A stretch of 64,000 bases of DNA from a virus (Duplodnaviria > Caudoviricetes), in IMG/VR virus record IMGVR_UViG_3300025913_000019. One strand, 5' to 3'. Of this stretch, positions 7,020 through 64,000 are shown piece after piece. The notes below the pieces were generated by a model. That model was given only the letters and a program-made list of their open reading frames with translations. It did no database searches and was not told where the DNA came from. Position numbers and translations under genes: made by a program. Positions within the stretch are counted from its first letter, which is position 1. Each line of letters opens with the position of its first letter.

Positions 7020-7772
7020 CTAGATGGTGGGAGGGCCTTGGCTCACGTCGTCGATGAGGAGCGGCTGATCGGTCGGCGGCTCGACGCCACCGTCGTTGTT
7101 CGTCAGCTCCTGCACGACCGGCTCGTCTTCCTCGTCGTCGCCGTCGATGAGCATGTCGAAGGCCGCGCCGTCGGAGATCGGATCTTCGGTCGACGCCAGC
7201 GTCTTCGCATTCGCCATGGCGATCACCTCGTCGTCGCTGAGCGGTCGGCCGGCTTCGGCCTCGAGTTCCGCGCGATAGCGCTTGCCGGCTTCACGCACCT
7301 CGGCTTCGGTGAAGAGGCGGCTGGCCGTCGTGTCGAGCTTCAGCGGGTCTTCGCCGTTCGGATCAGCGGGATCGACGTCGCCTTCCATGATGCACGGCTG
7401 CTGCGCGGAGCTCGTGTCGGCGCCCAGGATCACGTCGTCTGCGGCTTCCGCCTCGTGGTCTGTGGCGGGCAGGTCGCTCGGGTTCGAGGTCGGCAGCGAT
7501 CCGAAGTCCGACGTGTCGTTGGCCGTGACCGGCTTGGACGCGCGCTCGAGCTCGGAGATCAGGTTCTCGTAAGCGGTCACCGCATCGGTGTGACCACGGG
7601 CCTTTGCGGCGGCGTGACCACGGCGTGCATCACCCAGCTCGGTCTCGATCACGCGCCGCGAGTCGTCATCGACGCTGGCGAAGAAGGTGGCCGAGTTGGA
7701 CACGGGCTGCGTCGGCTGGTCGTAGGTCGAGCTGGCGAGCAGGCGTTGCTTGGCTTGGAGTTCGAGATTCAT
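7020..7772 (-). CDS. acidic hypothetical protein with N-terminal LQAKQRL motif
   Basis: Starts MNLELQAKQRLLA; ATGA overlap with upstream gene. Confidence 0.75.
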   Translation of the reverse strand: MNLELQAKQRLLASSTYDQPTQPVSNSATFFASVDDDSRRVIETELGDARRGHAAAKARGHTDAVTAYENLISELERASKPVTANDTSDFGSLPTSNPSDLPATDHEAEAADDVILGADTSSAQQPCIMEGDVDPADPNGEDPLKLDTTASRLFTEAEVREAGKRYRAELEAEAGRPLSDDEVIAMANAKTLASTEDPISDGAAFDMLIDGDDEEDEPVVQELTNNDGGVEPPTDQPLLIDDVSQGPPTI

Positions 7773-7972
7773 TTGCTGTGATCCCAGTGTTTGGAGGTCT
7801 CGGCGAACTCAGCCATCTTTGCGGGATGGCCGCCGGCCGCCTTGCCTTTCGCGATGTCCGCTTCGGTGATGGGTTCGTCCTCGCTCTTGCCCAGCCACTT
7901 GTGGAAGTCGCCGTGCTTGATGGGGCCGATCTTGGCCATGAGCCTGGACTTGGCTTTGAGCTGGAGGATCAT
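7769..7972 (-). CDS. small basic protein with N-terminal LKAKSRL motif
   Basis: 67 aa, MILQLKAKSRLMAKIGPIKHGDFHKWLGK...; GAGG RBS upstream of ATG 7972. Confidence 0.7.
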   Translation of the reverse strand: MILQLKAKSRLMAKIGPIKHGDFHKWLGKSEDEPITEADIAKGKAAGGHPAKMAEFAETSKHWDHSK

Positions 7973-7979
7973 CTTGACC

Positions 7980-8339
7980 TCACGGGCGATAGGGTTTGAG
8001 GGCGGGTTTGCGACCCCACGGGTTCTTCGGCTTCGGCCGCTCGTGGTTGCCACGCTGCAGGTGCGTGTGTCGCGCGTCGTGGCAAGCGCCGCAAAGCGTG
8101 ATGAGATTGCTCATGGTCGTGGTGCCACCGGCAGACAGCTTCAGGATGTGGTGGACGTCCTTTCCAGGTGCTCCACACGCACGGCCTGAGCGCCGGTCTT
8201 GGCACTTGCCATCGTCGCGATCCCACACACGCTTGCGAATCTCCCACCAGTCGGTTTGCGTGGTCGAGTAGGACTCACGCTGAATGCGGGCGGTGCCATC
8301 AGCACGCCGGCGGACGTTGGGTCTGCGTTGCATGACCAT
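7980..8339 (-). CDS. HNH endonuclease
   Basis: C...C-x-DVHHILKLSAGGTTTMSNLITLCGACHDARH matches the HNH/Zn signature; start trimmed to ATG 8339. Confidence 0.85.
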   Translation of the reverse strand: MVMQRRPNVRRRADGTARIQRESYSTTQTDWWEIRKRVWDRDDGKCQDRRSGRACGAPGKDVHHILKLSAGGTTTMSNLITLCGACHDARHTHLQRGNHERPKPKNPWGRKPALKPYRP

Positions 8340-8352
8340 AAAATTGGACCTT

Positions 8353-8685
8353 TCAGCCGCCTTGTCGATCGTGACTGTTGTACCGTCCGTCCAGGTAGTT
8401 GACCGACATGACCCTGGCTCTGACCATGAGGCACTCGAGCTTCGACAGCCTGTAGAGCGTGTCGTCGCCGCAGACCAGGATCGGACCACCCGCGCACTCC
8501 CACACGATGAAGGGTTCGTGCGCATCGTGCTCGTTGGCGAGGTCGGACGAGTCGCGAACGATGGTCTTGCCACGGGTCTTGATGATGCAGCCCTTGACCA
8601 TGCGGTCGCCCGGCAGGAACGACTCGTCGTCCGTGACTTCGAGAGCTTGCAGCAGCTCGACTTGATCGCTGATAGATCGGACCAT
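8353..8685 (-). CDS. hypothetical protein
   Basis: 110-aa C-terminal part of the 8353-9117 ORF; ATG overlaps the stop of 8685-9029. Confidence 0.6.
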   Translation of the reverse strand: MVRSISDQVELLQALEVTDDESFLPGDRMVKGCIIKTRGKTIVRDSSDLANEHDAHEPFIVWECAGGPILVCGDDTLYRLSKLECLMVRARVMSVNYLDGRYNSHDRQGG

Positions 8686-9029
8686 CACACACCCCCACCC
8701 GTGCGGGCTTCGAAGTACCACTTGATGACCGCGGTCTGGAATGCAGCCAGCGGCACGTTGATGGCCGCGATGATGAGGCCGATGTCGGTGCCGTTGCGAG
8801 CCTCGTTCACGTCGGCGTAGTGCATCGACCACTTGATGACGCCGAAGGTGACGAACAGCGTCGCCATCGCCACGATGTGCTTCTCGACATCGCGCTTGTC
8901 GAACCAGTCCCACAGCATGGTCATGGTCGCGACGATCATGCTCACTTCCTTGGGCGGCTGCACCGTGACTTCGGTCTTCACGGTTGTGGTCTCGGTCACG
9001 GCCGATTGTGTGGTGTTGTCTTCGCTCAT
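8685..9029 (-). CDS. two-TM membrane protein, holin-like candidate
   Basis: Two hydrophobic segments (HIVAMATLFVTFGVIKW; IGLIIAAINVPLAAFQTAVIKW) in 114 aa; no endolysin seen nearby. Confidence 0.5.
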   Translation of the reverse strand: MSEDNTTQSAVTETTTVKTEVTVQPPKEVSMIVATMTMLWDWFDKRDVEKHIVAMATLFVTFGVIKWSMHYADVNEARNGTDIGLIIAAINVPLAAFQTAVIKWYFEARTGGGV

Positions 9030-9259
9030 TTTGTCCAGTCCTCAATGATGGGTGTGCCGACCGCAGTCGACGGGGTAGGGACGGTCGTAGGCTGCCACAC
9101 ATTCGGGCCGCAAGCACTCGTCCAGACGTTGAGCCACCTACCTCCGTACCACCGCCTGTAGAACGGCAGGGAACCGAGATGGGAGACGAAAAACGGGAGC
9201 CGAAAGAAGTTCATGGTCACGCTCCTCGAAAGAAGGGTGACCATGAAAGTGACCCTTCG

Positions 9260-9550
9260 CTAGTACAGGTCCTCGCTGAAGAGTTCGGTGGAGTCCGGGT
9301 TGCCGGTCTTGTGACGGATCTGACCTTGACGAGTCGCGATCTCGAAGGCCTGCTCACGATCGAAGAAGGTGCCGAACTGATCGATGAAGCCCTGGATGCC
9401 GTCGGCCTCCGTCTGCTTGAGCCCCATCGCCTTGTACTGCGCCATCATGACCGCGTCGTAGTGCCGCGGGCCGACGATCATGCCCTGCTCGAACAGGATC
9501 GCGGCACAGACGATACGCCGGCGTGCAGGATCGGGAATCCAGTCGCTCAT
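9260..9550 (-). CDS. conserved phage hypothetical protein
   Basis: RIVCAAI..G.RH.D..QGFIDQFG.FFDREQAFEIA..GQI..LFSEDLY pattern typical of a widespread phage family; ATGA-coupled to nrdB. Confidence 0.7.
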   Translation of the reverse strand: MSDWIPDPARRRIVCAAILFEQGMIVGPRHYDAVMMAQYKAMGLKQTEADGIQGFIDQFGTFFDREQAFEIATRQGQIRHKTGNPDSTELFSEDLY

Positions 9551-10617
9551 ACCGCCACCAGCTCTTCAAGGCTCAGCTTGCGACCGGAGAGCTTCGGCTT
9601 GAAGCTCTCCATGTCGTTGAACAGCGATGCCGCCGACAGGTACTCGAGTGCGCCGTCTTCCTGCGGCGCCGCCTGCACCTTGTCCGAGCCGTCCACGAAC
9701 TCCTCCATGTAGCTGATGTTCAGCGGAGGCAGCTTGCGGCTCGTGAGGCCGATGCCGTTCGTGGCCTTGATCTCACGGTAGTCGATGTGGTCGCAGAGGA
9801 TGCCCTCGTTGAGACCCAGGATCGGGCCATGCGAGAACAGGTACTGCGCCCACTGCTTCTCCTGGTCGGCCGCCGTGCGGTAGATCTGCAGCGCGCGCTC
9901 GCGGTTGTCGCCGATGATCTGCACGAACTCCGGATCGTCCTTCGGCAGCGCTTTCAGGATGTGCATGACCAGCGACAGGTGGATGTTCTCGTCACGAGCG
10001 ATCAGCTTCACGACGTCACCCGAACCCGAACACAGCAGGCGCTTCTTGAAGTTGAAGACCGTGGCGAAGAAGTTGAAGAAGCGTAGGGCCTCCAGCGCGT
10101 TGGCCTCGCACAGCGCGAGATACAGGTTCTCCTTCGTCGGGTTCGTCTTCATCCGATCGTAGGCATCGGAGATCGCGGCCGCGCAGTCCGTGATGGCGGT
10201 GATGCCAGGGATCGCATCCACCACGGCAGTGCCGCCGTCAGGGTACACGGCTTGCAGGATGTGCGTGTAGCTCTCGCTGTGGATGGTCTCGAACTGCTGC
10301 CAGGTCGTGATGCAGTTGCTCAGGCTCGGGTCCGTGCAGCTGGGGCCGAAGACCAGAGTCGGCTCCTCGCCTTGCTTCGTATCCAGCATGATCGCACGCT
10401 GGAGGCCCGACGTGAAGATGAACTGCTCGGCGTCGGTCATCGAGTTGTAGGACCGTCGCTCCCCGGACATGGTCACCGTCTCGGGCTCCCAGTTGAAGCT
10501 GCGCATCAACTTGTTGAGCTTGTCGAAGATCGGGTAGCGCGGCTTGTCGTAGCGCGCGATGGGCTTGCCTTCCGGCGCGAAGAAGAGCTGGCTCGGGTTG
10601 GAGTAAAGGGGTCGCAT
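9547..10617 (-). CDS. nrdB: ribonucleotide reductase class Ia beta subunit
   Basis: Di-metal ligands LDTKQG, ETIHSESY (with radical Tyr), EALRFF, DENIH. Confidence 0.93.
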   Translation of the reverse strand: MRPLYSNPSQLFFAPEGKPIARYDKPRYPIFDKLNKLMRSFNWEPETVTMSGERRSYNSMTDAEQFIFTSGLQRAIMLDTKQGEEPTLVFGPSCTDPSLSNCITTWQQFETIHSESYTHILQAVYPDGGTAVVDAIPGITAITDCAAAISDAYDRMKTNPTKENLYLALCEANALEALRFFNFFATVFNFKKRLLCSGSGDVVKLIARDENIHLSLVMHILKALPKDDPEFVQIIGDNRERALQIYRTAADQEKQWAQYLFSHGPILGLNEGILCDHIDYREIKATNGIGLTSRKLPPLNISYMEEFVDGSDKVQAAPQEDGALEYLSAASLFNDMESFKPKLSGRKLSLEELVAV

Positions 10618-10626
10618 CTTTGTTCC

Positions 10627-12993: not shown

Positions 12994-13018
12994 TCCAGTA
13001 GTTGATCGGATTCGGTGC

Positions 13019-14152
13019 TCAGCAGGCGCGGTCGTGGATCAGGTAGTCGCGCCAGATGTCGGCGCTCTTGCGCACGTACTGGATGAGGGTACGCTTCTGG
13101 CGCTGCTGGACCGAGTCGTTGCCGCTCTTGATCCAGGTGTGATGCATCACGTTCGCGATCTCGGTCACGTTGTTCGGGTCGGCCTGGTAGGCATCGTCGA
13201 GCCACGGGATGTTGGCGCCGACGACCGGCACGTCGCAGACCACGGAGTCGGCGAGCACGATATTGAAGGTCTCCGAGTTCGACACCTGGGAGACGATGTC
13301 CATCTCGGTCAGCAGCTTCATGAAGTCGTGATGGTCCATCCACGGGACCTCGACCAGCTCGTGCGGCTTCATGCGCTCGAACAGGGACTTCAGGCTCCGC
13401 AGCAGCGCGTCGCCCTTGTTCTCGATGCGGCTCGCGTTGATGTAGAACTTGAGCTTGAGGCCCAGCCGCGATGCGACCTTGAGGGCTGCCAGCGCCTGGT
13501 TCATGTTGTTCTTCAGCGGACGGATGGCGCCGAAGCAACCGACGTGGAACTCGCCGTGGTGCTTGACCTTCTGGTGACGGATGACCAGGAGCTGCAGCCA
13601 CTCGCGCGGCAGCGACAGGTGCGTGTTGAAGTCGTAGTAGTTCGGCAGGTAGACGATGCGACCGGGCCGCTCGACATCCGAGTCGCGCACGAGTTCGCGG
13701 ATCTCGCGCGCCGCGTCGGGGCTGTTGAAGCCGACGGTGATGCCGCGCTCCAGGTAGTCCAGCGCCCAGCCGAACACCGTGCCCTCGTGAGCCAGGAACT
13801 CGGTGTTCGAGTGACAGCGGACCATCCACTCGATCTCGGGATTCATGGCCGCCAGCACCTTGAACTTGTCGGGCACGACCCAAAAGCCTTCGATGATGAC
13901 ATGGGTCGGCGCGTAGGACACGACCTCCTGGTGGATGAAGTTGTTGTCCTGGACCTGGACGAGCTTGGCCTCGATGCCCATGTCTTCCAGAGCCTTGACC
14001 ATCTGCTTGACGCTGACGCTCATGCCCGAAGGGAGCAGGCCGCCGTTGGCACTGTAGCCCCAAGTGCCGTAGCCACCGCTGGGCCTGGCCTTGAGGACGA
14101 AGAGGACACGAGGACAATGGTGGTGGTGATGTGGTGCGTGACCGAAGTTCAT
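13019..14152 (-). CDS. GT-B fold (GT4-like) glycosyltransferase
   Basis: VGCFGAIRPLKN and SETFNIVLADSVVCDVPVVG resemble the GT4 nucleotide-sugar binding motifs. Confidence 0.75.
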   Translation of the reverse strand: MNFGHAPHHHHHCPRVLFVLKARPSGGYGTWGYSANGGLLPSGMSVSVKQMVKALEDMGIEAKLVQVQDNNFIHQEVVSYAPTHVIIEGFWVVPDKFKVLAAMNPEIEWMVRCHSNTEFLAHEGTVFGWALDYLERGITVGFNSPDAAREIRELVRDSDVERPGRIVYLPNYYDFNTHLSLPREWLQLLVIRHQKVKHHGEFHVGCFGAIRPLKNNMNQALAALKVASRLGLKLKFYINASRIENKGDALLRSLKSLFERMKPHELVEVPWMDHHDFMKLLTEMDIVSQVSNSETFNIVLADSVVCDVPVVGANIPWLDDAYQADPNNVTEIANVMHHTWIKSGNDSVQQRQKRTLIQYVRKSADIWRDYLIHDRAC

Positions 14153-14210
14153 GAACTTTCCTTTGGAGTCGCCAAAGGGTCCGCTTGGGACCCGTTGACC
14201 TCTATTTACC
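14145..14210 (-). promoter_or_regulatory. GTAAATAG motif followed by two hairpins and a 14-bp palindrome over the glycosyltransferase start codon
   Basis: GGGTCC/GGACCC (14177-14193), CTTTGG/CCAAAG (14161-14177), AAGTTCATGAACTT (14145-14158). Confidence 0.5.
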
Positions 14211-14217
14211 GTTTGAA

Positions 14218-15702
14218 TCAGAAGTACGGGAGCCCACGGTATGCTCCGTAGGCACCGCCGTACAGGCTCGCGGGACTGATGGTGATGCCCACCGCTCCCA
14301 TGGCGCCACGCTGCAGGGCGCCGAAGTTGCCGTCTCCATTGGGGCCCGATCCATCCCCGTTTTGGTTCCCCTTGATGATGAGGTTCTGCTTGAACGGCTT
14401 GAGCTCGTTGTCCAGTGCCGACTGGATCTTCGAGGCCATGTTGTCGAGGTACTGCGTGCGATCCACATCGAGACTGATGTTGGCGCCGCTGAAGTTGAAT
14501 GCCTTCTCACCCTCCAGGAGATACTGCGCTTCGAGCGCGTACTTCTCTGCGCACAGCAGCCAGTACTCGCGCACCGGCCCCATGGCGTTCGTCATCGTCA
14601 GGCTGGAGAAGACGCCCGCGTAGCCGTTGAAGAAGTCCATGCCGCGGCGCAGCCACTTCATGATCTCGGTCGACGGGAACAGGGAGTCCGGCGTGCCATA
14701 CAGCGTCGTGCGTGCCTTGTTGATCTTCGCCTTCACATCCTCGATGGCTTGGATCATCGAGTCGGTGACGATCCACAGCTCGGTGGCCTGACGGAAGGTC
14801 TGCGCCGGCACGTTCCAGAACTTCCAGTTGATCTGATACGGCACGCAGCTGGGCGGGAGACTCGTCGTGTCGATGGTGGCGCTCACGCAGTAGCCGCCCG
14901 CGATCTTCTCCGGGTTGAGGACCGGCATCGAAGCCAGCACCTGACCGCCTTGACGCAGCTCCACCACGTAGTTCTGGTACAGGTCCTTGGTCGCGAACAG
15001 GACGGTCGCGGGATCACCCTGCATCTCGATCGAAGGCTGGCAACCCAGCTGCACATCGATCAGACCTTCGACCGTGATGGCTTCGAACTGGTAGATGTTC
15101 TGCTCGCCGACTCGCAGCGTATAGCGCAGCTGGTAAGGCTTGCCGACCGACGGCGGGATCGACGACGGCACGTTGATGACCGAGCGAGCGATCACCGTGT
15201 TGGCAACGCCCGTAGCCATGATGCGCATGTCGAAGGCATTGCCCGAGGCGTAGACGGTGCCCGTCTCGTCCAGGATGTCCCACAGCACGTAACCACCGCT
15301 GGGATCGAACGTGTTGGGGAACGGGATGGCAGCGACCGCGACCGCGCTCTTGCCCGCCTGGATCGAACCCACGAGGTCCTGGTACGAGTCGGGGTCTGCG
15401 TTCGGGTACGGATCGAACGAATCGGAGATGACGTTGAGCGCCACCGTGAGCACGAACGTGCGCAGGTTGGTCACGAACGTCAGCGGCCAGCCGTAGCTCA
15501 CGCCAGTCGAGCCACCGGTGGCCGTGAATGCGACAGGCAGCGCGGTGCCGCTGGTCACGGTCAGGGTCGGCGCACCCGTGTCCGCAGGCGTGACGGCACC
15601 GACCGAGATCGATGTCACGGTCTCACCTGCTTGCAGCGCCGGCGTGAACTGGTTCGAGATGTCGGACCCGTCCTTGGTGAAGACGTAGAGCTTTTGCATC
15701 AT
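14218..15702 (-). CDS. probable virion structural protein (beta-rich N-terminus, possibly neck/adaptor-like C-terminus)
   Basis: 494 aa with Thr/Val-rich beta-strand pattern and a helical C-terminal region; structural role inferred from composition and context. Confidence 0.5.
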   Translation of the reverse strand: MMQKLYVFTKDGSDISNQFTPALQAGETVTSISVGAVTPADTGAPTLTVTSGTALPVAFTATGGSTGVSYGWPLTFVTNLRTFVLTVALNVISDSFDPYPNADPDSYQDLVGSIQAGKSAVAVAAIPFPNTFDPSGGYVLWDILDETGTVYASGNAFDMRIMATGVANTVIARSVINVPSSIPPSVGKPYQLRYTLRVGEQNIYQFEAITVEGLIDVQLGCQPSIEMQGDPATVLFATKDLYQNYVVELRQGGQVLASMPVLNPEKIAGGYCVSATIDTTSLPPSCVPYQINWKFWNVPAQTFRQATELWIVTDSMIQAIEDVKAKINKARTTLYGTPDSLFPSTEIMKWLRRGMDFFNGYAGVFSSLTMTNAMGPVREYWLLCAEKYALEAQYLLEGEKAFNFSGANISLDVDRTQYLDNMASKIQSALDNELKPFKQNLIIKGNQNGDGSGPNGDGNFGALQRGAMGAVGITISPASLYGGAYGAYRGLPYF

Positions 15703-16709
15703 CAGCCTTTGGGTACGTGATAGAGACGGGGAAGCCCCTGCTCATTGAACTTGGCGAGCGACGGCCACGTGATCTGCACGGGAGCGCCCGTGTAGTGGAG
15801 CCGGAACTTGAACGCGTAGGTCTTGCCCGCCTTGTCGAGTTCGCCCTTGATGGCACGACCGTTCTTTTCCAGGATCGCAGGGCCCGGGACGAAGCCGTCC
15901 ATCTTGTGCAACGACTTGAAGTACGAGGCGTCGACACGCGGACCATACTGATCCGTGTTCTTCTCTTCCTCCTGTGTGCGCTGCAGGCCGGTCTTGTACT
16001 CGTAGTCGTCGGTGGGATCGAAGCGTCGGGGGTCGAGGCCAACGTGCACCATCCAACGCTGCCAATCCGGCCCGTGGCCCTGCGCTGTGCGGTCGTGTAC
16101 GTGATCCACCGTCCACACCGCCTGGTGGCACATTTCGTGGAGAAAAACCTCCAGAAAGAAGGGCAAACGGGCGTTCCACATGATCGTATTGAACCAGAGG
16201 AATTTGGTCCGAAAACCGGCTTCTCCGACGTGCAAACCGCGTGTCGATGGGCGACTGCCGATGCCCGGAACCTTTGCGTCCGAGACCAATTTCGGCAGCT
16301 TCATGCGGCCCTGGAACTTGTGCTCGTTGTAGTACTCCCACAGCGCCTTCATGAAGGCTTGCCGCTTGGAATCCGAGACCTGCGCCTTCTGGTACATGGC
16401 CTCGAGTTCCGGGGTCACACCGCTCGACTTGGACAGGTGGGTGTCAGTCGCCTTCTTCTCGGTGCGCTTGCCGGCGTCGATGAAACGCACGACGTTGTTG
16501 CTGGGGCTGACGCCGAGCTTGCCCACATCCGGGATGTCGTAGACGGCGACCGTACCCTTGGCCGCCATCGTCGGCTTGACCGAGATGACCTTCGGGTTGA
16601 AGAAGCGGAACTTGAAGGTGTAGGTCGCTGCTTCCTCGTCAGCCTTGATGAGGCTCAGCTCCGTGAAGCTGAGCCGCGTCAGCAGCGACTTGACTTCGGT
16701 GATGTTCAT
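15702..16709 (-). CDS. SprT-like zinc metalloprotease
   Basis: LEVFLHEMCHQ (HExxH) followed by GHGPDW; start at ATGA overlap 16709. Confidence 0.8.
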   Translation of the reverse strand: MNITEVKSLLTRLSFTELSLIKADEEAATYTFKFRFFNPKVISVKPTMAAKGTVAVYDIPDVGKLGVSPSNNVVRFIDAGKRTEKKATDTHLSKSSGVTPELEAMYQKAQVSDSKRQAFMKALWEYYNEHKFQGRMKLPKLVSDAKVPGIGSRPSTRGLHVGEAGFRTKFLWFNTIMWNARLPFFLEVFLHEMCHQAVWTVDHVHDRTAQGHGPDWQRWMVHVGLDPRRFDPTDDYEYKTGLQRTQEEEKNTDQYGPRVDASYFKSLHKMDGFVPGPAILEKNGRAIKGELDKAGKTYAFKFRLHYTGAPVQITWPSLAKFNEQGLPRLYHVPKG

Positions 16710-17668
16710 TCCTGGGCTCCGTTCTTGCGAGTCCACTCCGACATCGCGTGCTCGAGCCTCGGGTGCATGGGCTCGGGCAGCTCGTCAGCGCCGCACCACT
16801 TGTAGTCTGTGTGCTCTTCGTTGAGCGTGGGCTCGAACTCGTCGGGCACGACAGCCATATGGTTGTGGAAGATGAAGTTGGGCTGGACGTCGCGATGCAT
16901 GAACAGCAGTTCGATGGGCTCATCGTAGCCGCACTCTTCCGAGAGCTCGCGCTTCGTGCCCTGATCGATGGTCTCGCCATCCTCGATGCCGCCGCCGGGA
17001 ACACACCAGGTGCCAGGGCAGTCGCCAGTCTCCGAACGCTTGATGAACAGGAAGCGACCCGTGGCCTGGCTGTAGAGCAGGACGCCGCCGCCGAAGCCGG
17101 TCTCGCGGCCAGCCTGCGTCCGTCGCTTGTAGGCGTCGAGCAGCACCTGCTGCGAGATCGCGGCCTTGACGACCTTGGCACCCGCAGCTTTGAGGCTCGC
17201 GAGCTTGGCTTCTGCGCGTTCGATTGCCTGCTCGGTCGACAAGGCCATGACGTCGAAGCTGACGATGTTCATCGTGCCGTCTTCTTCGTTGTAGCTGTCT
17301 GCGAGCTGAACGGTGAACTCGCGCTCGGTATCAGCGGTCAGCTTGCGCACCAGCTCTTCACCGACCGGGCGATCCATCGAGCCGATGTCCACGGACTCGG
17401 GATCGAAGTTGTGCCGACGCTCCGGCATCCGATCCAGCTTGTCGACCGCGACCGCGAGCTCGTGATCGGCGCTCATGCCATCGTGACGCGGGACCACGCG
17501 GTCGAGGTCTTCATCGGAGGCAGCGAGCTCGCGACCGCGGGCTTCCGACCAGGCAAGACCCGAGTACGGCAGGCCGTTGCGGCGTTCGTGCAGCCGCTGC
17601 AGAGCCATATCGATGTCGATCTTGGCCGCGAGCCTTGTCGCGGCGCGAAGTTCTTTGGGTTTGGTCAT
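16706..17668 (-). CDS. Nudix hydrolase with unknown N-terminal domain
   Basis: Nudix box GGGIEDGETIDQGTKRELSEECG, plus LNEEHTDYKW. Confidence 0.85.
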   Translation of the reverse strand: MTKPKELRAATRLAAKIDIDMALQRLHERRNGLPYSGLAWSEARGRELAASDEDLDRVVPRHDGMSADHELAVAVDKLDRMPERRHNFDPESVDIGSMDRPVGEELVRKLTADTEREFTVQLADSYNEEDGTMNIVSFDVMALSTEQAIERAEAKLASLKAAGAKVVKAAISQQVLLDAYKRRTQAGRETGFGGGVLLYSQATGRFLFIKRSETGDCPGTWCVPGGGIEDGETIDQGTKRELSEECGYDEPIELLFMHRDVQPNFIFHNHMAVVPDEFEPTLNEEHTDYKWCGADELPEPMHPRLEHAMSEWTRKNGAQE

Positions 17669-18201
17669 GACGGTGAGAGCGGATCGTTGAAGACGAGCTG
17701 GGTACCACGCATCATGAAGTTGCGTGTGTAGAGGTCCAGCCGGTTGAAGTGCTTGGCCATGAAGACGCAGAGCTGTCGCTCATCGATGCCCTTGGCGAAG
17801 CGGACAGCCTGCATCCACTCCGGGTACGAGAGTCGGGTCTGCTCACTGAAGCGCTTGAGGTCAGCACCCGGCGCCAGCGTCTGAAAGCCCAGGACCACAT
17901 CCTTGTCGGTCGCGGGCTTCAGAACCTTCATGAACACGATGTCGATTCGCTTGTCGTCCAGCGTCGACTCGTTGACATCGATGATCTCGGGCAGCCACGG
18001 GTTGCCCTTGTTCTTGCGACAGAACGCGACGTACTGCATGTACGCATCGTCGGCCTTGACGATCTTGACCGCCACGTCCTTCATCGTCGGGTGCTGGAAG
18101 ATGACGCCGAACTCACCGCTGGCGATCTCGGCGACGTCCAGGTCTCGAAGACGCTTGATGTACTCGTCGTAGGTCTCGGCCAGCAGTTGGTTCGGTCCCA
18201 T
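17665..18201 (-). CDS. Ser/Thr protein kinase resembling the T7 gp0.7 kinase domain
   Basis: SGEFGVIFQHP, VAVKIV, DAYMQYVAFCR..GNPWLPEI, catalytic loop DLYTRNFM, NDPLS. Confidence 0.75.
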   Translation of the reverse strand: MGPNQLLAETYDEYIKRLRDLDVAEIASGEFGVIFQHPTMKDVAVKIVKADDAYMQYVAFCRKNKGNPWLPEIIDVNESTLDDKRIDIVFMKVLKPATDKDVVLGFQTLAPGADLKRFSEQTRLSYPEWMQAVRFAKGIDERQLCVFMAKHFNRLDLYTRNFMMRGTQLVFNDPLSPS

Positions 18202-18202
18202 C

Positions 18203-19396
18203 TCAGTCGCCTTCGTTGATGATGTTGCAGAGCTTGCGCACCTTCGTCGGGCTCAGCTTGTACTTGTCTTCCATGAACTCGAGGTCGATCGGATGGACGC
18301 CCTCGGAGTGGTCCATGTTCGAGAACGTGAAGGTCAGCACGTTCTGGTCGCGCCGGACGCGAATCTGCGTGCCCTTCTTGCGCTTCACGATCGCCTTGAG
18401 TTCGAGGAAGATTTGGGCCTGAGCCTCGGCCACCTTCGCAGGGTCGTTCGTGTTGAGCGTGAAGATCAGCTCGTCGCGTGCGGCATCGACCGACTCGATG
18501 GCCTCGGCTGCCGAGAAGGCTTCACGGCGCAGGCCACCGGCCGGCTCGCGAATCTGCATCGAGACCGGGAGGTTGCCGATCTGGCTGGAGAAGCCTTCGA
18601 GGCTCATCTGCTTGGCGATGGCCTGCGCGGCCGTCGTCAGGCTGGTGATGGTGTGCCCGCCTTCGAGCTTGCCCGGCGGCACGAAGTCGTGGTCGATGAA
18701 GAGCTCGACGTTGCCGCCGACCGTCCACTTGACCGCGATGTAGAGGTGGGGCACGTCCTTGCCCTCGTCGTTCACCGCGTTCTGGAGGATGATGTAGCCG
18801 CAGAAGACCAGCTGGTCTTCCTTGTCGAGCGCGGCGTACGTCATCGTCTGCAGCGACTCGCACTCGATGTACTTGTTGTTCTCGATTTCTTCGGCCAGCG
18901 CCTTGACGAAGTTCTTGTACTGCTTCGGTGCGTGTCCTTCAGCGATCTTGGCCAGCGCCTGGAACAGGGTCTTGAGCGAGTCCTCGATCTGCGTCTTGAG
19001 CTTCTGGAAGCCGCCCAGGACTTCCTGGAACTGCTTCGAGTTCTCGCCCCGCATGTTCATCTTGAACTCGTTCTCCGCGTTCACGAGGAACTTGTAGCGC
19101 TCGCTGAGCCGCTCGGTCAGCGCGTAGTGCTGCTTCAGCTCGTCGGCGTTCGGGACCTCGACCTCGGGGAAGTCGATGTTCATGGTGCGGCGACGCTTCT
19201 TGCCGTCACCGCTGATGTCGAGCGTCTTCACGTCGAGCGCGATGACCGGAGAGGCCTTGACGACGCGTGCGATCTGGCTGAGTCCGCGGTCGACCATCTG
19301 ACGGTCGAGGTCGAACTCCTTGGTCTGCTCTTGCAGGAAGCGCTTGACCTCTTCGAGGCTGCGGAACTTCGTGGTCTGATTGGAGGGCATGTTCAT
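18203..19396 (-). CDS. hypothetical protein with coiled-coil segment
   Basis: 397-aa ORF, strong GC3 bias, ATGA-coupled. Confidence 0.75.
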   Translation of the reverse strand: MNMPSNQTTKFRSLEEVKRFLQEQTKEFDLDRQMVDRGLSQIARVVKASPVIALDVKTLDISGDGKKRRRTMNIDFPEVEVPNADELKQHYALTERLSERYKFLVNAENEFKMNMRGENSKQFQEVLGGFQKLKTQIEDSLKTLFQALAKIAEGHAPKQYKNFVKALAEEIENNKYIECESLQTMTYAALDKEDQLVFCGYIILQNAVNDEGKDVPHLYIAVKWTVGGNVELFIDHDFVPPGKLEGGHTITSLTTAAQAIAKQMSLEGFSSQIGNLPVSMQIREPAGGLRREAFSAAEAIESVDAARDELIFTLNTNDPAKVAEAQAQIFLELKAIVKRKKGTQIRVRRDQNVLTFTFSNMDHSEGVHPIDLEFMEDKYKLSPTKVRKLCNIINEGD

Positions 19397-20379
19397 TCCT
19401 TGTCGTCAGGTTCGGGATACACGACGTCGCGTGTGTAGGTTCGTACTTGACCGTCGGAGCCGTATCGGTCGTTGTAGGCTTGGGCGCTGTCGGGCCCGAT
19501 GTTGAGCATCAGGTTGTCGCCGTGTTCGCAGCTGAGGCGGGCCATGTCCTGACCGACCTTCATCATCTCAGGCGGGATGCCCTTGACCTGCATCCGATCG
19601 GAACCATCGCCGTCGACGAACATGCCGACGACGACGCTGTGACCGGCGGTGCCTTCCCATTCGACAGCTGCCAGGAAGTGAGCCATCGCACGGTACTGCT
19701 CCTCGGATGCGAACCCGAGCTTGAGGTCGAGGTGGAACGGCAGGTCATCGATGTGCTTCCGAGCCTCGATCTGCTCGCGCTGCGCTTCGAGCTCGATCCT
19801 GGCGCTCATCTTCTCGGCTTCGACCATCAGGGGATGGATGCCTCCTGCGAGCAGCTCGACCTCACGGGCGCACATGGCGCACGCCAGACGAGAAGAAGGG
19901 CCGCCGCACTTAGTGCGAAGGCCGTCGGGACGAGGAACCACGTGACCATGGACTTGGAGCGGATCGACATACTTGGCGATGAAGTCGTGGACGTTGATGG
20001 TGTACAGCGTCTGAAGATCGGCGTGCTCGCCGTTCGACAACGTGCAGGTGTAGATCCCGTCGTGGTAACGCCCGTGATACGAGTCGGCCACGGGCTGACC
20101 ATTGACACCGACGGTGAAGGTGTGGATCGGATGGCCGGGCTCACCGACGATCACGATCTCGTGGTTGCGCTCGAGCTCATGAGCGAGACTGCGAATCACG
20201 GTCGCCCTGCAGTCGTTGCCCTTGACCGGCATCAGGCCAGCGCCCATCTGCCCCATGCGCTTGAGGAATGCTTCGACGCTGACGTTGCCACCGTCGCCCA
20301 CCTGCTTGGCTTCAACAGCCAGGAGCGCTTCGATGAGTTCGAGCCTTGCGGCCGCGTGTAGCTGCTTGACTTTGGTCAT
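19393..20379 (-). CDS. hypothetical protein with N-terminal LHAAARL motif variant
   Basis: 328-aa ORF with ATGA overlaps at both ends. Confidence 0.75.
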   Translation of the reverse strand: MTKVKQLHAAARLELIEALLAVEAKQVGDGGNVSVEAFLKRMGQMGAGLMPVKGNDCRATVIRSLAHELERNHEIVIVGEPGHPIHTFTVGVNGQPVADSYHGRYHDGIYTCTLSNGEHADLQTLYTINVHDFIAKYVDPLQVHGHVVPRPDGLRTKCGGPSSRLACAMCAREVELLAGGIHPLMVEAEKMSARIELEAQREQIEARKHIDDLPFHLDLKLGFASEEQYRAMAHFLAAVEWEGTAGHSVVVGMFVDGDGSDRMQVKGIPPEMMKVGQDMARLSCEHGDNLMLNIGPDSAQAYNDRYGSDGQVRTYTRDVVYPEPDDKE

Positions 20380-21023
20380 CGCATCAGCTCCGCGATGATG
20401 GCGTTCATCTCCGCCAGCTGGTTCTTGCAGTCGACCAGCGCATCATGATCGCCCGGCAGCCGAGGGACGTCGCGGTCGAACTTGCGTCCGGCCTTCTGCC
20501 GCGCCACTGCCTTGATGGCGTTCATGTCGAAGTACTCGTAGTGGAACGTGCCGTCGACCGGCGTGTCGCCATCGTAGTGGCTGAGATCGATCACGTTCTT
20601 CATGTAGAGGAACAGGATGTCGGTGGGCACGCAGTCGCCGCACGGACTGACCTTGCCTTTCCACGTTCCGAGCCACTGCTCGAGCAACGACCGCGCCATC
20701 TTGTAGTCGATCTTCGACTCGTTGGCCTTGCGGTAGATCTCGGTCAGGTGCTTGCGCGCGAAGTCCGAGGTCGGCGCCAGGTCGGTGTGGATGAACAGGT
20801 TCAGCGTCGACTCGTCGTCATCGAAGTAATCGGGTCGGGCGTACGCCTTGCCGTTCCATTCGAGCTTCAGAGCCGTGAGCTGGATGATGTCGTCCTTCTT
20901 CGGATCGAGGCCGGTCATCTCGCAGTCGAGCATGACCAGCCGCTCCGGCATGAACAGCGGACTCGGGTCCATCGGTTGTTCCGCGCTCAGGAGGCGCGCC
21001 TTGGCTTTCAGTTGGAGTTCCAT
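20376..21023 (-). CDS. DEDDh 3'-5' exonuclease, oligoribonuclease-like, with N-terminal LKAKARL motif
   Basis: ExoI LVMLDCEMTGLDP, ExoII region VPTDILFL, YFDMNAIK, ExoIII HDALVDC; start ATG 21023 behind AGAG RBS. Confidence 0.85.
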   Translation of the reverse strand: MELQLKAKARLLSAEQPMDPSPLFMPERLVMLDCEMTGLDPKKDDIIQLTALKLEWNGKAYARPDYFDDDESTLNLFIHTDLAPTSDFARKHLTEIYRKANESKIDYKMARSLLEQWLGTWKGKVSPCGDCVPTDILFLYMKNVIDLSHYDGDTPVDGTFHYEYFDMNAIKAVARQKAGRKFDRDVPRLPGDHDALVDCKNQLAEMNAIIAELMR

Positions 21024-21037
21024 CTTGTTCTCTCTGG

Positions 21038-22294
21038 TCAGAACGTGAAGCTGCTGCCACCGTCGGTGATGCCGCTGATCGTGTTCGCCTTCGACGGCGT
21101 CGCAGCGTTGGTCGTCTGCTCCTTGACCATGACGTGACCACGGACTGGGAGGATGCGCCAGAGCTCGGCCGGCTGCGCGACTCGCACCTGGACCTCTTGA
21201 CCGAGGAAGTTGCGATCGCGCGTCGTCCACGGGTTGACTGTACCGACGATCAGCAGCCGCCCCGATTGCGACTCGGCGATGATGTCCAGGGTCTGGACTT
21301 CCGGGCACTCCGGGCTCATGAGGATCTGGAACGGCTCGGTCTTCTCGAACACCGAGATGTCCTGGCTCTTGCCCTTCTTCGGGAACTCGAAGTACACCGG
21401 CTCGGGGTTGAGACCGGCCTGGGCCTCGAAGTGCGTGACCGGGTCCTGGCTGTTGATCGTGATGGTGTGAGGCCGACCGTCAAACCAGTTGAGGACACGC
21501 TTGTTCATCGTGTCGGTTCCGTCGATCAGGATCTGCGCCCTGACCATGCGGTCGCCGTTCATGACGCGGAAGCAGTCGACGACGGCAGCACCGAGAGGCA
21601 GGACCATGACGAACGTGAAGGTACCGGGCCGTAGGGCCAGCGGGCTCGTCGTCAGGTCGAGAGTCGACGTGGTCTGCATCCGGGTCGCATCCACGACCTG
21701 ACGCCAGCCCCGGAAAGGCGAGAAGCCGCCGATGTACCCCGATCCGAAGCACAGTGGGCAGCTCACGTCGGTGAGACCGATCGATCCGTAGTCGAAGTCG
21801 CGCAGCAGCGCGTCGATGTCGGGACTGAACATGCCAGTCTCGGTCATCGTCGGTTCGTCGGTCACCAGGTTGTTTGTTCCGTCGTCGGGACCCGCGCGCC
21901 GCAGGTCACCGAGGAACTGATTGGTCGCGTTGTTCGGGCTCGTCTCGTGGTCGTGGAAGTTGTCGATGTCGTCGAACTCGGAATCCGGCGACAGCGGGTT
22001 GTAGGCGCCGACGCCGAACTTGGATTCACCGGTCAGCACGCGATTGATCGTGCCTGTGTCGGCCTTACCATCGGGATTCAACTTCAGGCCCACCGCCTTC
22101 TCCGCACCCTTGCAGGTGCAGGCGATGCCCTGGCTCAGTCGCGAGTAGAGGATGGCCTTGAACCCCTGGACACGAAACGCAGCGATCATGCGCTGCTGTT
22201 GCATCGATGCCACGTGCTCGACCATCGTCTTGGCGACATCCGACGCCCGCATGTTCGCAGGCGTCAGATTGGAACGGTTGTCCATCAGCGGCAC
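21038..22294 (-). CDS. probable virion head-completion/neck-type protein
   Basis: CTC...CPLCFGSGYIGGF Cys pattern; AAGGAGG RBS then GTG 22294; function inferred. Confidence 0.5.
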   Translation of the reverse strand: MPLMDNRSNLTPANMRASDVAKTMVEHVASMQQQRMIAAFRVQGFKAILYSRLSQGIACTCKGAEKAVGLKLNPDGKADTGTINRVLTGESKFGVGAYNPLSPDSEFDDIDNFHDHETSPNNATNQFLGDLRRAGPDDGTNNLVTDEPTMTETGMFSPDIDALLRDFDYGSIGLTDVSCPLCFGSGYIGGFSPFRGWRQVVDATRMQTTSTLDLTTSPLALRPGTFTFVMVLPLGAAVVDCFRVMNGDRMVRAQILIDGTDTMNKRVLNWFDGRPHTITINSQDPVTHFEAQAGLNPEPVYFEFPKKGKSQDISVFEKTEPFQILMSPECPEVQTLDIIAESQSGRLLIVGTVNPWTTRDRNFLGQEVQVRVAQPAELWRILPVRGHVMVKEQTTNAATPSKANTISGITDGGSSFTF

Positions 22295-22305
22295 GTTGGC
22301 CTCCT

Positions 22306-23187
22306 TCAGTTGCTGACCGCGGACTCGAAGTCGTCCCACACCTTCGAGACGTAGGTCTTGACCAGATCAGGGTCCACGCCCTTCATCAGCGCCTTGACCC
22401 GCGGGTCCTTCATCACCAGTTCGGTGACCTTGGAGACCGGAGTCGGGCTCTTCAGGTTGTAGATGGCGATCCTTGTGATTGCGTTCTTGAGGTCGGCGCT
22501 CAGCGACGCAACGATCAGGCTCATGTTGAGCTTCGTCGGTGGGCCGATCTCGACGCAGCGGATGATCTTGAACTTCGGGTACTTGTGACCCTTCTCCTTG
22601 CGGAAGACGCGCTTGGCCTGCTCGGCATCGACGCAGTGGTCGATCTTGATGCGGGCCGACGCGAGGTCGCCGCCCTGGCGCGGATCTTCGTAGCTGATGT
22701 AGAGCTCGAAAATCTTGTCGCTGGCGGCGCTGGCTGTTGTCTGCACGTGCGAGGCCACGAGACCCTTGCCCTTGCATTCCTTTACGACGTAGGCCTTCGC
22801 GTCGTACAGGTCCTGGTGGGTTGCACCCGTCGACATCGACCCGAAGTACTTCTTCGGCTTGCCCGGAATGTCGACCTCGAACACGTCGACGTTCTTGCGA
22901 CCTTGCTGCTGGACGCGGATCACGGCAGCCATCGTGCCGTTCTCGTCGTAGTAGTCGATGCGACCGAAGCCTTCTTCCCAGTGGCCTTCGGTGGCCAGCA
23001 GGCGGCTCTTGGCCTGGAGCTCGAGCGACGCATGGCTCATCTTCTTGAAGATGTTGGTGACGTAACCGTAGTCCTTGGCGTGGCCTTGCTTGCCAGCCGC
23101 TTCCTTGGCGTCGTCCCACTTCTTCTCGAGTTCGGGCACGGAGCCCTTGCCTTCGCGGCTCAGTTTCTTGATGTACGGTGTCGGCAT
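22306..23187 (-). CDS. hypothetical protein: small N-terminal helical domain plus internal LQAKSRL motif
   Basis: MPTPYIKKL..KW..AK..Y.YV..IFKK, then MSHASLELQAKSRLLA starting at in-frame ATG 23040. Confidence 0.75.
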   Translation of the reverse strand: MPTPYIKKLSREGKGSVPELEKKWDDAKEAAGKQGHAKDYGYVTNIFKKMSHASLELQAKSRLLATEGHWEEGFGRIDYYDENGTMAAVIRVQQQGRKNVDVFEVDIPGKPKKYFGSMSTGATHQDLYDAKAYVVKECKGKGLVASHVQTTASAASDKIFELYISYEDPRQGGDLASARIKIDHCVDAEQAKRVFRKEKGHKYPKFKIIRCVEIGPPTKLNMSLIVASLSADLKNAITRIAIYNLKSPTPVSKVTELVMKDPRVKALMKGVDPDLVKTYVSKVWDDFESAVSN

Positions 23188-23199
23188 GTTCAGCTCACA

Positions 23200-23577
23200 T
23201 CAGTCGTAGTACGGAAGAGTAGACTGCTTAGCCTTCTTCGGGCCAGTGATCCAGACGTAACCTTTTCCGTTGATGGTCACGGTAGCGACGACCGCTCCTT
23301 GGTACAGGAGTCGCACCGCTTTCGGGTCAGTCGCGTACTCGAGATTGCGTTCAACCTTCCAGCCGTTGGACTCGAAGGTCTTCACAACGTCCTCGATCTT
23401 GCTCGGATCGAGCTGACAGGTCATCTGCTGGAAGTCTTCGTAGGGATTGGAATTTCCCCACTGGCCGTGAGCTTTGGCTCCCCAGCGCTTCACCAGCAGA
23501 TTGCGGATCAGTGTCGCAGTAGGCTCCGACACTTTTGCTGCTGTCATTTGCAGACGGGATTTGGCTTGGAGTTTCAT
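23200..23577 (-). CDS. hypothetical protein with N-terminal LQAKSRL motif
   Basis: MKLQAKSRLQ at ATG 23577 behind GAGG RBS; more AT-ending codons than neighbours. Confidence 0.7.
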   Translation of the reverse strand: MKLQAKSRLQMTAAKVSEPTATLIRNLLVKRWGAKAHGQWGNSNPYEDFQQMTCQLDPSKIEDVVKTFESNGWKVERNLEYATDPKAVRLLYQGAVVATVTINGKGYVWITGPKKAKQSTLPYYD

Positions 23578-63840: not shown

Positions 63841-63850
63841 GGCCGTAGAC

Positions 63851-63882
63851 AAGGGGTCGATCTCAACCGGGGTCGACCCCTT
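63851..63882 (+). terminator. hairpin (terminator or RNA-processing stem)
   Basis: AAGGGGTCGA/TCGACCCCTT perfect 10-bp stem. Confidence 0.6.
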
Positions 63883-63933
63883 CTCCATTTCTGTGTCCCC
63901 AACTGTTCCATCCGACCTAGAAAGGTTACCGCA

Positions 63934-64000
63934 ATGAACCGCTACATCAAGTACGTCACGAGCCTCGGCTTCTCAGGTGTCACCGAAGCCGCGCAGAAGA
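63934..64000 (+). CDS. hypothetical protein, 5' fragment
   Basis: CTAGAAAGG RBS, MNRYIKYVTSLG..., open to the window end. Confidence 0.6.
   Translation, partial: MNRYIKYVTSLGFSGVTEAAQK

What the first reader, a model, noticed from the sequence alone, without database searches (positions are those of the whole stretch)
7020..23577. Shared N-terminal peptide LxA(K/A)xRL on seven unrelated proteins: candidate capsid-loading or maturation signal
Seen: MNLELQAKQRLLA (7772), MILQLKAKSRLMA (7972), MELQLKAKARLLS (21023, exonuclease), MKLQAKSRLQ (23577), internal MSHASLELQAKSRLLA (23040), and looser MTKPKELRAATRLAA (17668, Nudix) and MTKVKQLHAAARLE (20379). The proteins share nothing downstream and the codons vary, so the constraint looks protein-level. 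All lie in the block with probable virion genes and none is in the replication or early blocks. Established: T4 internal proteins use a short N-terminal capsid-targeting sequence that the prohead protease removes. Inference: this is a phage-specific zip code that packages enzymes (nuclease, Nudix) into the head for injection with the DNA.
Basis: partly seen in the sequence, partly recalled or inferred. Interest (0 to 1): 0.82.

Follow-up and report, generated by a model that had tools for sequence, protein, structure and literature searches.

The report
Shared address tag, phiRSL1-like jumbo phage
Seven proteins in this window (15 in the phage record), otherwise unrelated, carry the same roughly 12-residue peptide, and every related phage including Ralstonia phage phiRSL1 has its own version; it most likely labels proteins for loading into the virus head, but no experiment shows this yet.

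Summary
All seven peptides lie at the stated coordinates. L-x-A-K-x-R-L occurs 5 times in the window's six-frame translation and 11 times in the 139-kb phage record. Every hit has an ATG within 7 codons upstream. Shuffles give 0.1 and 0.4 hits. The invariant Arg uses all six codons, and the 15 protein bodies are unrelated. The phage is a phiRSL1/BcepSauron-like jumbo myovirus. Each of about 15 related lineages has its own tag version: LQAKxRL, LNAAxRL, I-x-AAV-x-RL in phiRSL1, NFAxRL.

In an oligoribonuclease-like family, the 25 closest homologues have tag, then a 5-75-residue variable linker, then the conserved enzyme. Distant homologues lack the tag. AlphaFold models it as a short, poorly packed helix.

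Tagged genes sit beside the prohead protease, the portal and the tail tube, in fast-changing islands. The capsid protein's N-terminus resembles the tag and ends in A-T-E/D.

Best reading (0.55): a label read by one phage-encoded partner that loads cargo into the prohead, analogous to the T4 capsid-targeting sequence. Cleavage after A-[TS]-E is plausible only for some tags.

No virion proteome could be consulted. Earlier follow-ups in this scan reported the same tag in three other phiRSL1-like genomes.

The parts
7020..7772 (-). Tagged ORF, 250 aa, very acidic (pI 4.05). Tag MNLELQAKQRLLA is at 7734-7772.
   Evidence: No Pfam or PHROG hit.
7769..7972 (-). Tagged ORF, 67 aa. Tag MILQLKAKSRLMA is at 7934-7972. 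The real start is the internal ATG of a longer GTG-started ORF.
   Evidence: GAGG ribosome-binding site 6 nt upstream. Ortholog in L005 begins MTRRLVLQAKQRLAESKVIAKIGPIKH.
16706..17668 (-). Tagged Nudix hydrolase, 320 aa. Looser tag MTKPKELRAATRLAA is at 17624-17668. The Nudix domain covers residues 196-307.
   Evidence: PF00293, E 1.8e-17; PSSM score 13.3, rank 8. The phiRSL1 ORF109 and BcepSauron gp099 Nudix proteins also carry short tags.
19393..20379 (-). Tagged ORF, 328 aa. Looser tag MTKVKQLHAAARLE is at 20338-20379. Contains a Cys-rich HGHVVPRPDG..KCGGP..C..C module.
20376..21023 (-). Tagged RNase T / oligoribonuclease-like 3'-5' exonuclease, 215 aa. Tag MELQLKAKARLLS is at 20985-21023, followed by a linker; the enzyme fold starts at about residue 25.
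   Evidence: PF00929; 25 homologues have tag, then a 5-75-aa linker, then FLPxRLVMLDCEMTGL; pLDDT 51-58 for residues 1-20 and above 86 afterwards, with a helix at 7-13.
22306..23187 (-). 293-aa ORF made of a conserved ~55-aa N-domain (MPTPYIKKLSREGKGSV..LEKKWD..), an internal tag MSHASLELQAKSRLLATE (22987-23040) and an unrelated C-terminal body.
   Evidence: phiRSL1 ORF112 has the same architecture. In L027 and BcepSauron gp098 the protein ends just after the tag. Highest PSSM score in the genome (29.3).
23200..23577 (-). Tagged ORF, 125 aa. Tag MKLQAKSRLQ is at 23548-23577.
   Evidence: (GAGGA ribosome-binding site).
14218..15702 (-). Context: conserved virion gene (head-tail connector-like, phiRSL1 ORF118 homologue). 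It bounds the variable island that holds the tagged genes.
   Evidence: phrog_17327, E 1e-62. In L015 three tagged ORFs lie directly upstream of its homologue.
21038..22339 (-). Context: conserved 433-aa gene (phiRSL1 ORF115 / BcepSauron gp095 homologue). It forms the other boundary of the variable cargo island.
   Evidence: shared N-terminal NNRILPANARAADVA motif.

Best explanation
The peptide, consensus M-K-L-[QNE]-A-[KA]-x-R-L-L-A-[TS]-(E), is a modular address label. One phage-encoded partner of the head-assembly machinery reads it. The most likely partners are the acidic scaffolding core or the inner capsid surface.

Proposed mechanism:
- The label brings otherwise unrelated proteins into the prohead. 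These include an oligoribonuclease-like exonuclease, Nudix hydrolases, a possible ADP-ribosyltransferase-fold protein and many small ORFans.
- The proteins end up inside the capsid and can enter the host together with the DNA.
- The label is a short basic helix on a flexible linker.
- It resembles the N-terminal peptide of the major capsid protein, so it may dock at the same site.
- Where A-[TS]-E follows the tag, the prohead protease probably removes it. Elsewhere it probably stays on.

Shown here: the motif, its modularity, its clade-wide distribution with lineage-specific versions, and its linkage to head genes.

Inferred: capsid loading, the identity of the partner, cleavage and injection.
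For: 1. Non-random and N-terminal: 11 of 11 strict hits in the record are N-terminal against 0.42 hits expected. An independent PSSM from other phages recovers them.

2. Protein-level constraint: all six Arg codons are used. The tag is conserved across relatives with 49-62% GC.

3. Modular:
- The 15 bodies are unrelated.
- In the exonuclease family the tag is kept while the linker varies from 5 to 75 aa, and distant homologues lack it.
- AlphaFold gives a confident enzyme with a detached, low-confidence N-terminal helix.

4. Lineage-specific versions are shared by all tagged proteins within a genome: LQAKxRL here, I.AAV.RL.ATEV in phiRSL1, LNAAxRL in L011/L013, NFAxRL in L015, KIEAKxRL in L027. 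The internal tags of the conserved N-domain protein follow the same lineage version. This points to a co-evolving partner encoded by the phage.

5. Linkage to head genes:
- Tagged ORFs follow the prohead protease here and in most of the relatives examined, yet their bodies are mostly not orthologous.
- In complete phiRSL1, about 10 tags lie at 58-78 kb around the protease, scaffold and capsid genes, and one lies next to the portal. None lies in the early or replication regions.
- L027 has 14 tagged genes in 9 kb after the tail tube gene.

6. The capsid protein N-termini (..IRAAKSPVLATD/E..) rank 24th of 41,213 positions on the tag PSSM and end in A-[TS]-E/D. Tags often continue RL-x-A-T-E.

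7. The 514-aa protein between the protease and capsid genes is acidic and scaffold-like, while the tags are basic.

8. Dickeya phage JA33 has a protease only 35% identical and no such tag, and its capsid protein N-terminus differs.
Against: - No direct evidence places any tagged protein in a virion. The phiRSL1 virion proteome (Yamada 2010) and the cryo-EM/mass-spectrometry paper (Effantin 2013) are not held in the library.
- Only 14 of 63 tags have A/S-T/S-E/D in exact register. Some exonuclease homologues join the tag directly to the catalytic core with no acidic residue. Cleavage is therefore not general.
- The tag also occurs internally and at the C-terminus. The T4 capsid-targeting sequence is N-terminal.
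- Tagged genes also cluster after the tail tube gene, so a tail or other virion destination is not excluded.
- The protease fold assignment is weak: model pLDDT is 58, and the Foldseek top hits are herpesvirus assemblins at E of about 0.25.
- The window's tagged genes are interleaved with nrdAB and other non-virion genes.
Confidence: 0.55

Rival explanations
1. The tag is an address label for a different phage-encoded hub, not the capsid interior. Possible destinations are the virion exterior (head decoration or whisker sites), the tail, an assembly chaperone or an intracellular assembly site.
For: The lineage-specific co-variation only requires some phage-encoded receptor. Many tagged genes lie after the tail tube gene. 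Follow-ups in this scan on giant E. coli phages read similar N-terminal tags as external docking plugs. From memory, unverified: the phiRSL1 capsid is reported to be decorated.
Against: The recognisable cargo consists of nucleotide- or RNA-acting enzymes (exonuclease, Nudix) and small ORFans, not binding or adhesin modules. The tag resembles the capsid protein's own N-terminal peptide. Tagged genes occupy the slot between protease and scaffold.
Confidence: 0.22
2. The peptide is only a recognition propeptide for the prohead or another phage protease, giving timed activation or removal. It has no role in localisation.
For: RL-x-A-[TS]-E recurs after the tag. A-[TS]-E/D also ends the conserved N-terminal peptide of the capsid protein and, in some lineages, of the protease.
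Against: Most tags (49 of 63) lack the acidic site in register, and some have no acidic residue before the folded domain. The best-conserved positions (L-5, A-3, R0, L+1, A+3) lie upstream of any putative scissile bond.
Confidence: 0.1
3. The peptide is a signal read by host machinery, such as an N-terminal ClpXP/Lon degron, a secretion signal or a membrane-targeting helix.
For: It is short, N-terminal, basic and helical.
Against: It has no hydrophobic core and no twin arginine. The versions drift by phage lineage across hosts with very different GC content, including a one-residue insertion in phiRSL1 and a truncated form in L015. That is not expected for a signal read by a conserved host receptor. 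Internal and C-terminal copies are functional-looking.
Confidence: 0.06
4. The motif is an element at the nucleotide level, such as a translation-initiation or regulatory RNA motif or a recombination cassette boundary, or it is a remnant of paralogy.
For: It lies at gene starts, and the genes sit in rapidly changing islands.
Against: The invariant Arg uses all six codons and the Leu positions use 4-5 codons. The amino-acid motif persists from 49% to 62% GC. There is no similarity downstream of the tag. Internal and C-terminal copies exist.
Confidence: 0.02

Closest known systems
Capsid-targeting sequence (CTS) of phage T4 internal proteins IPI/IPII/IPIII (MKTYQEFIAE), removed by the prohead protease gp21. 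This description rests on established knowledge, not on a paper read here.
   Same: A peptide of about 10-13 residues starting MK, shared by otherwise unrelated and fast-evolving proteins. The genes lie in variable loci of a myovirus that has a prohead protease and a scaffolding core. Many copies end in Ala-x-Glu. The cargo plausibly includes host-directed enzymes.
   Different: There is no sequence similarity to the T4 CTS. The phage lineage and the protease family differ (phrog_18299, no Pfam hit). There are many more tagged genes per genome: at least 15 in 139 kb here and 14 in 9 kb in L027. The acidic cleavage site is present in only a minority of tags. The tag also works in internal or C-terminal positions. 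Packaging has not been demonstrated.
Propeptides and ejection/inner-body proteins of phiKZ-like phages (phiKZ, 201phi2-1, SPN3US), processed at S/A/G-x-E by the prohead protease (PMC5694885, PMC7411985, PMC10052503; listed, not read in detail).
   Same: Jumbo myoviruses that package many proteins. Cleavage occurs after Glu in an A-x-E context, which matches the A-[TS]-E found after many tags and in the capsid protein N-terminus here.
   Different: To my knowledge, no single shared short targeting peptide has been defined in those phages. Here one conserved label is shared by all candidates.
Encapsulin cargo-loading peptides
   Same: A short, linker-attached peptide that docks diverse enzymes to the interior of an HK97-fold shell. 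It can sit at either terminus.
   Different: Encapsulins have no scaffold, protease or DNA. The consensus is unrelated. The analogy is functional only.
N-terminal virion-docking peptides on adhesin-like proteins of giant E. coli phages
   Same: One conserved N-terminal peptide on many divergent bodies in a jumbo phage.
   Different: Those bodies are binding modules thought to sit on the outside of the particle. Here the recognisable bodies are intracellular-type enzymes.

Membership tests
T4-type capsid-targeting sequence system (functional class) | A short terminal peptide shared by otherwise unrelated proteins of one phage | tested here: met
   15 tagged ORFs in G000 with unrelated bodies.
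T4-type capsid-targeting sequence system (functional class) | The phage assembles heads with a prohead protease and a scaffolding core | tested here: met
   Protease phrog_18299 at E 5e-77. An acidic 514-aa scaffold-like protein lies between the protease and capsid genes. Capsid protein phrog_2522. The protease fold itself is inconclusive.
T4-type capsid-targeting sequence system (functional class) | The tag is a detachable module, independent of the cargo fold | tested here: met
   Variable linkers of 5-75 aa in the exonuclease family, untagged distant homologues, and a detached helix in the AlphaFold model.
T4-type capsid-targeting sequence system (functional class) | The tag is removed by the prohead protease at its consensus site | tested here: inconclusive
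   A/S-T/S-E/D is in exact register in 14 of 63 tags. The capsid protein N-termini share A-[TS]-E/D. There are no cleavage data.
T4-type capsid-targeting sequence system (functional class) | Tagged proteins are present inside virions, and the tag is necessary and sufficient for packaging | not testable with these tools
   The phiRSL1 proteome papers are not held. No proteomics tool is available.
T4 CTS (homology) | Sequence similarity to MKTYQEFIAE, and a gp21-family (Peptidase S77) protease | tested here: not met
   The consensus MKLQAKxRLLATE is unrelated. The protease has no Pfam hit.
Sec/Tat signal peptides | A hydrophobic h-region of 10 or more residues, or a twin-arginine motif, plus an A-x-A site | tested here: not met
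   The tag logo shows a single Arg, Lys/Ala/Ser/Gln around it and no hydrophobic stretch.
External docking peptide of receptor-binding or adhesin modules | The bodies are binding or adhesin folds displayed on the particle | tested here: not met
   The recognisable bodies are an RNase T-like exonuclease and a Nudix hydrolase. The others have no family. The display location itself was not testable.

The most novel reading that the evidence does not exclude
The phiRSL1-like jumbo phages have a general cargo-addressing system that can be read from sequence. A roughly 12-residue basic helix mimics the capsid protein's own N-terminal scaffold-docking peptide. It works at either end of a protein and loads 15-25 or more interchangeable proteins per genome into the head for co-injection. 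These would include nucleotide-signal-degrading enzymes and many small candidate anti-defence factors. If so, the whole injected effector set of a phage clade, including cultured phiRSL1 and BcepSauron, could be listed from sequence, and foreign proteins could be packaged by adding the tag.
Probability: 0.4. Interest if true: 0.8.

Novelty: new variant of a known kind. Interest (0 to 1): 0.62.

Why it matters
If the tag does load proteins into the head, it gives three things.

1. A sequence rule that lists the packaged and probably injected proteins of a whole jumbo-phage clade. Most of these are ORFans, and some are enzymes suited to countering nucleotide-based host immunity.

2. A second capsid-targeting signal, unrelated in sequence to the one in T4. 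Its co-evolution with the receptor is visible across about 15 lineages.

3. A practical handle for packaging reporter or cargo proteins into phiRSL1 or BcepSauron particles in laboratory strains.

The claim can be tested directly in cultured phages. I found no description of the tag in the searchable literature. Three other follow-ups in this scan reported the same tag in other phiRSL1-like genomes, so it is not new to the scan.

Tried and rejected
- Pfam and PHROG scans of the tagged proteins and of their tag-less bodies. Only the exonuclease and the Nudix hydrolase matched a family.
- phmmer of the protease against PDB sequences: no hit.
- AlphaFold model of the protease from 11 sequences: poor (pLDDT 58). 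Foldseek top hits were all herpesvirus assemblins but not significant. The fold and cleavage specificity therefore remain unproven.
- phmmer of the capsid protein against PDB sequences: only a distant HK97-type hit (6wkk). No solved phiRSL1-like capsid was found that could reveal the mature N-terminus.
- The phiRSL1 proteome and cryo-EM papers, requested by DOI, are not held. The GenBank and RefSeq phiRSL1 annotations carry no virion evidence. A search for phiRSL1 ORF numbers found nothing relevant.
- The Matilda preprint has infection proteomics but no sequences I could map to tags. FLC6, PaBG and the Iyer et al. jumbo-phage survey do not mention the tag.
- tblastn of the 69-aa N-domain protein against phage records: no match.
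- ESM Atlas search for the 283-aa tagged protein outside the window: only weak leads to ADP-ribosyltransferase-fold families (DUF952, Tpt1, PARP), not a finding.
- Dickeya phage JA33, a more distant relative of the protease, has no tag.
- Rejected readings: an RNA-level motif, a paralogy remnant and a Sec/Tat signal.


Full report
**What the DNA is.** The window is the reverse strand of a virus record, G000. The record is 139,364 bp and CheckV estimates it 59% complete. Window position w equals 63149 - g + 1, and the two copies differ by 12 substitutions. The sequence has 62% GC, and real genes have a GC3 of about 0.8-0.9. The major capsid protein is 64-68% identical to those of Burkholderia phages BcepSauron/BcepSaruman and BCSR5 and Ralstonia phage phiRSL1, and 55% identical to that of Achromobacter phage Motura. 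The phage is therefore an uncultured phiRSL1-like jumbo myovirus.

**Checking the observation.** All seven peptides are on the minus strand at the stated coordinates.
- The strict pattern L.AK.RL occurs 5 times in the window's six reading frames and 11 times in G000.
- Every hit is in the coding frame with an ATG no more than 7 codons upstream.
- Dinucleotide shuffles give 0.10 hits for the window and 0.42 for G000. Residue shuffles of the called proteins give 0.09 against 8 observed.
- With looser members, G000 has 15 tagged ORFs.
- Within G000 the invariant Arg is encoded by all six Arg codons, and the flanking Leu positions by four or five codons. The constraint is therefore on the peptide, not on the RNA.
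- After removal of the tag, the 15 bodies show no pairwise similarity (best E 0.24).
- Only two bodies have a recognisable family: an RNase T/oligoribonuclease-like exonuclease and a Nudix hydrolase.

**The tag is clade-wide and each lineage has its own version.** Loci fetched with the prohead protease as query (15 IMG/VR relatives, 49-78% identity) carry the same kind of peptide on non-orthologous ORFs. So do complete phiRSL1, BcepSauron and a 201.6-kb ENA contig, L027. The spelling differs by lineage:

| Lineage | Tag version |
|---|---|
| Closest relatives | M..LQAKxRLxA |
| L011, L013 | M.IQLNAAxRLLA |
| L017, BcepSauron | MKLEAAxRLLAT |
| L027 | MKIEAKxRLMA |
| phiRSL1 (one extra residue) | M..I.AAV.RL.ATEV |
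| L014, L015 (shortened) | MNFAxRLLAS |

A logo of 63 curated tags gives L at -5 (44/63), A at -3 (56/63), K or A at -2, R at 0, L at +1 (57/63), A at +3 (41/63) and T or S at +4. E is the commonest residue at +5, in 13 of 63 tags. A PSSM built only from the 48 tags of other phages places G000's tags as 11 of the top 14 of 41,213 positions. Dickeya phage JA33 has a protease only 35% identical and shows no such tag.

**The tag is a module.** For the exonuclease, the 25 closest homologues in the protein collection (51-97% identity) all begin with a tag. A linker of very variable length and composition follows, about 5 to 75 residues. The conserved catalytic core FLPxRLVMLDCEMTGL comes next. More distant homologues (41-53% identity) start directly at the core. 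One of these comes from an unrelated 36%-GC phage.

An AlphaFold model of the window's exonuclease is confident overall (pLDDT 91.8). Residues 1-20 score only 51-58 and form a short helix at 7-13 that does not pack on the enzyme.

The tag is not strictly N-terminal. A conserved ~55-residue domain (MPTPYIKK..EGKGSV..LEKKWD..) is followed by the tag in this window (22306-23187) and in phiRSL1 ORF112, each with a different C-terminal body. In L027 and BcepSauron gp098 the protein ends just after the tag. In BcepSauron gp093 a Cys-rich HGHV.PRPDG module also precedes a tag. In each case the internal tag has the spelling used by that genome's other tags.

**Genomic setting.** In G000 the head module runs as follows:
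- prohead protease (phrog_18299);
- two tagged ORFs;
- an acidic 514-aa scaffold-like protein;
- a 226-aa virion protein;
- the capsid protein (phrog_2522);
- further on, the tail sheath and tube, followed by six more tagged ORFs.

The slot after the protease holds a tagged ORF here and in most of the relatives examined. The bodies are orthologous only between close relatives.

In the window, the tagged genes lie in a variable island between two conserved genes, homologues of phiRSL1 ORF115 and ORF118. In L015 the same island holds three different tagged genes.

In complete phiRSL1 about ten tags were found. Nine lie at 58-78 kb around the head genes and one (ORF210) lies next to the portal gene. 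None lies in the early or replication regions. L027 has 14 tagged genes in 9 kb.

The window's island also contains nrdA/nrdB, an HNH endonuclease and a topoisomerase-IB-like gene. 'Virion block' therefore overstates its purity.

**Hints about the partner and about cleavage.** The capsid protein N-terminus is conserved across the clade as ..[IV]-R-A-A-K-x-P-V-[LV]-A-[TS]-[ED]. Even without the Arg it ranks 24th of 41,213 positions on the tag PSSM. Some protease N-termini carry ..AATE too. Tags frequently continue RL-x-A-T-E, and the exact register is met in 14 of 63.

This fits a protease that cuts after Glu in an A-x-E context, as is known for phiKZ-like phages. However, most tags lack the site, and some exonucleases join the tag straight to the core. 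Cleavage can therefore apply only to a subset.

The protease model was poor. Its herpesvirus-assemblin matches are not significant. The scaffold-like protein is strongly acidic, whereas the tags and the capsid protein N-terminus are basic. This suggests, but does not show, electrostatic docking of both on the scaffold.

**Interpretation.** The data establish a modular peptide label whose spelling changes in concert across all tagged proteins of a genome. That pattern argues for one co-evolving, phage-encoded reader, and against host machinery or an RNA element. Three things make prohead loading the best-supported destination (0.55):
- the linkage to the protease, scaffold, capsid and portal genes;
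- the resemblance of the tag to the capsid protein's N-terminal peptide;
- the close formal parallel with the T4 capsid-targeting sequence.

Rivals are another virion site or another hub (0.22), a pure protease propeptide (0.10), a host-read signal (0.06) and nucleotide-level explanations (0.02). No virion proteome could be consulted, so packaging and injection remain inference.

**Relation to earlier notes of this scan.**
- First readers noted the same tags in overlapping windows of this genome.
- Follow-up agents described the same tag family in three other phiRSL1-like genomes and reached the same reading. Those reports are not independent evidence.
- I re-derived the clade-wide distribution, including phiRSL1, myself.

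Noticed in passing
window 22306-23187 (-); phiRSL1 ORF112; L027:9624-9833; BcepSauron gp098 (L028:7001-7216): A conserved ~55-aa domain (MPTPYIKK..EGKGSV..LEKKWD..Y.Y..I.KKM) is always followed by the lineage's own tag. It is a free-standing ~70-aa protein in two lineages and carries unrelated C-terminal bodies in two others. It matches no Pfam or PHROG family and may be a core component of the system.
   Followed up: partly
window 19393-20379 (-) around residues 140-175; BcepSauron gp093 (L028:10229-10603); protein P0013: A Cys-rich module HGHV.PRPDG.R.KCGGP..C..C recurs in three different tagged proteins. In gp093 it lies before an internal tag. In P0013 it is inserted in the linker between the tag and the exonuclease. 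Its function is unknown.
   Followed up: partly
G000 65443-66987 (outside the window; L002:2443-3987) and phiRSL1 ORF134: The 514-aa protein that PHROG annotates as 'ATPase' is an acidic, low-complexity protein with a conserved helical C-terminal region and repeated STHF.NE-like motifs near its N-terminus. It looks like the scaffolding protein rather than an ATPase.
   Followed up: partly
G000 74457-75308 (outside the window; L002:11457-12308): Tagged 283-aa protein. ESM Atlas gives only weak leads from its C-terminal half (residues 149-276) to the ADP-ribosyltransferase-fold families DUF952, Tpt1 and PARP. An earlier first-reader note called it ART-like. That is not confirmed here.
   Followed up: partly
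L025:9369-10588 (36%-GC unrelated phage contig): The untagged exonuclease homologue and the gene before it both start MKISLN. This could be a remnant or a different short shared N-terminus.
   Followed up: no
window 3103 (and 11 other positions): The window and the IMG/VR record G000 differ by 12 substitutions in 63 kb. The one at window 3103 creates a stop codon in G000 inside the large helicase-like ORF (phiRSL1 ORF129 homologue), which is intact in the window. Window 63150-64000 lies beyond the end of that record.
   Followed up: partly
window 17665-18201 (-) and 15702-16736 (-): Two untagged genes sit inside the cargo island: a small protein-kinase-like ORF (phrog_15752, which has a T7-kinase-type annotation) and a 344-aa ORF with a HEMCH zincin motif.
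   Followed up: no
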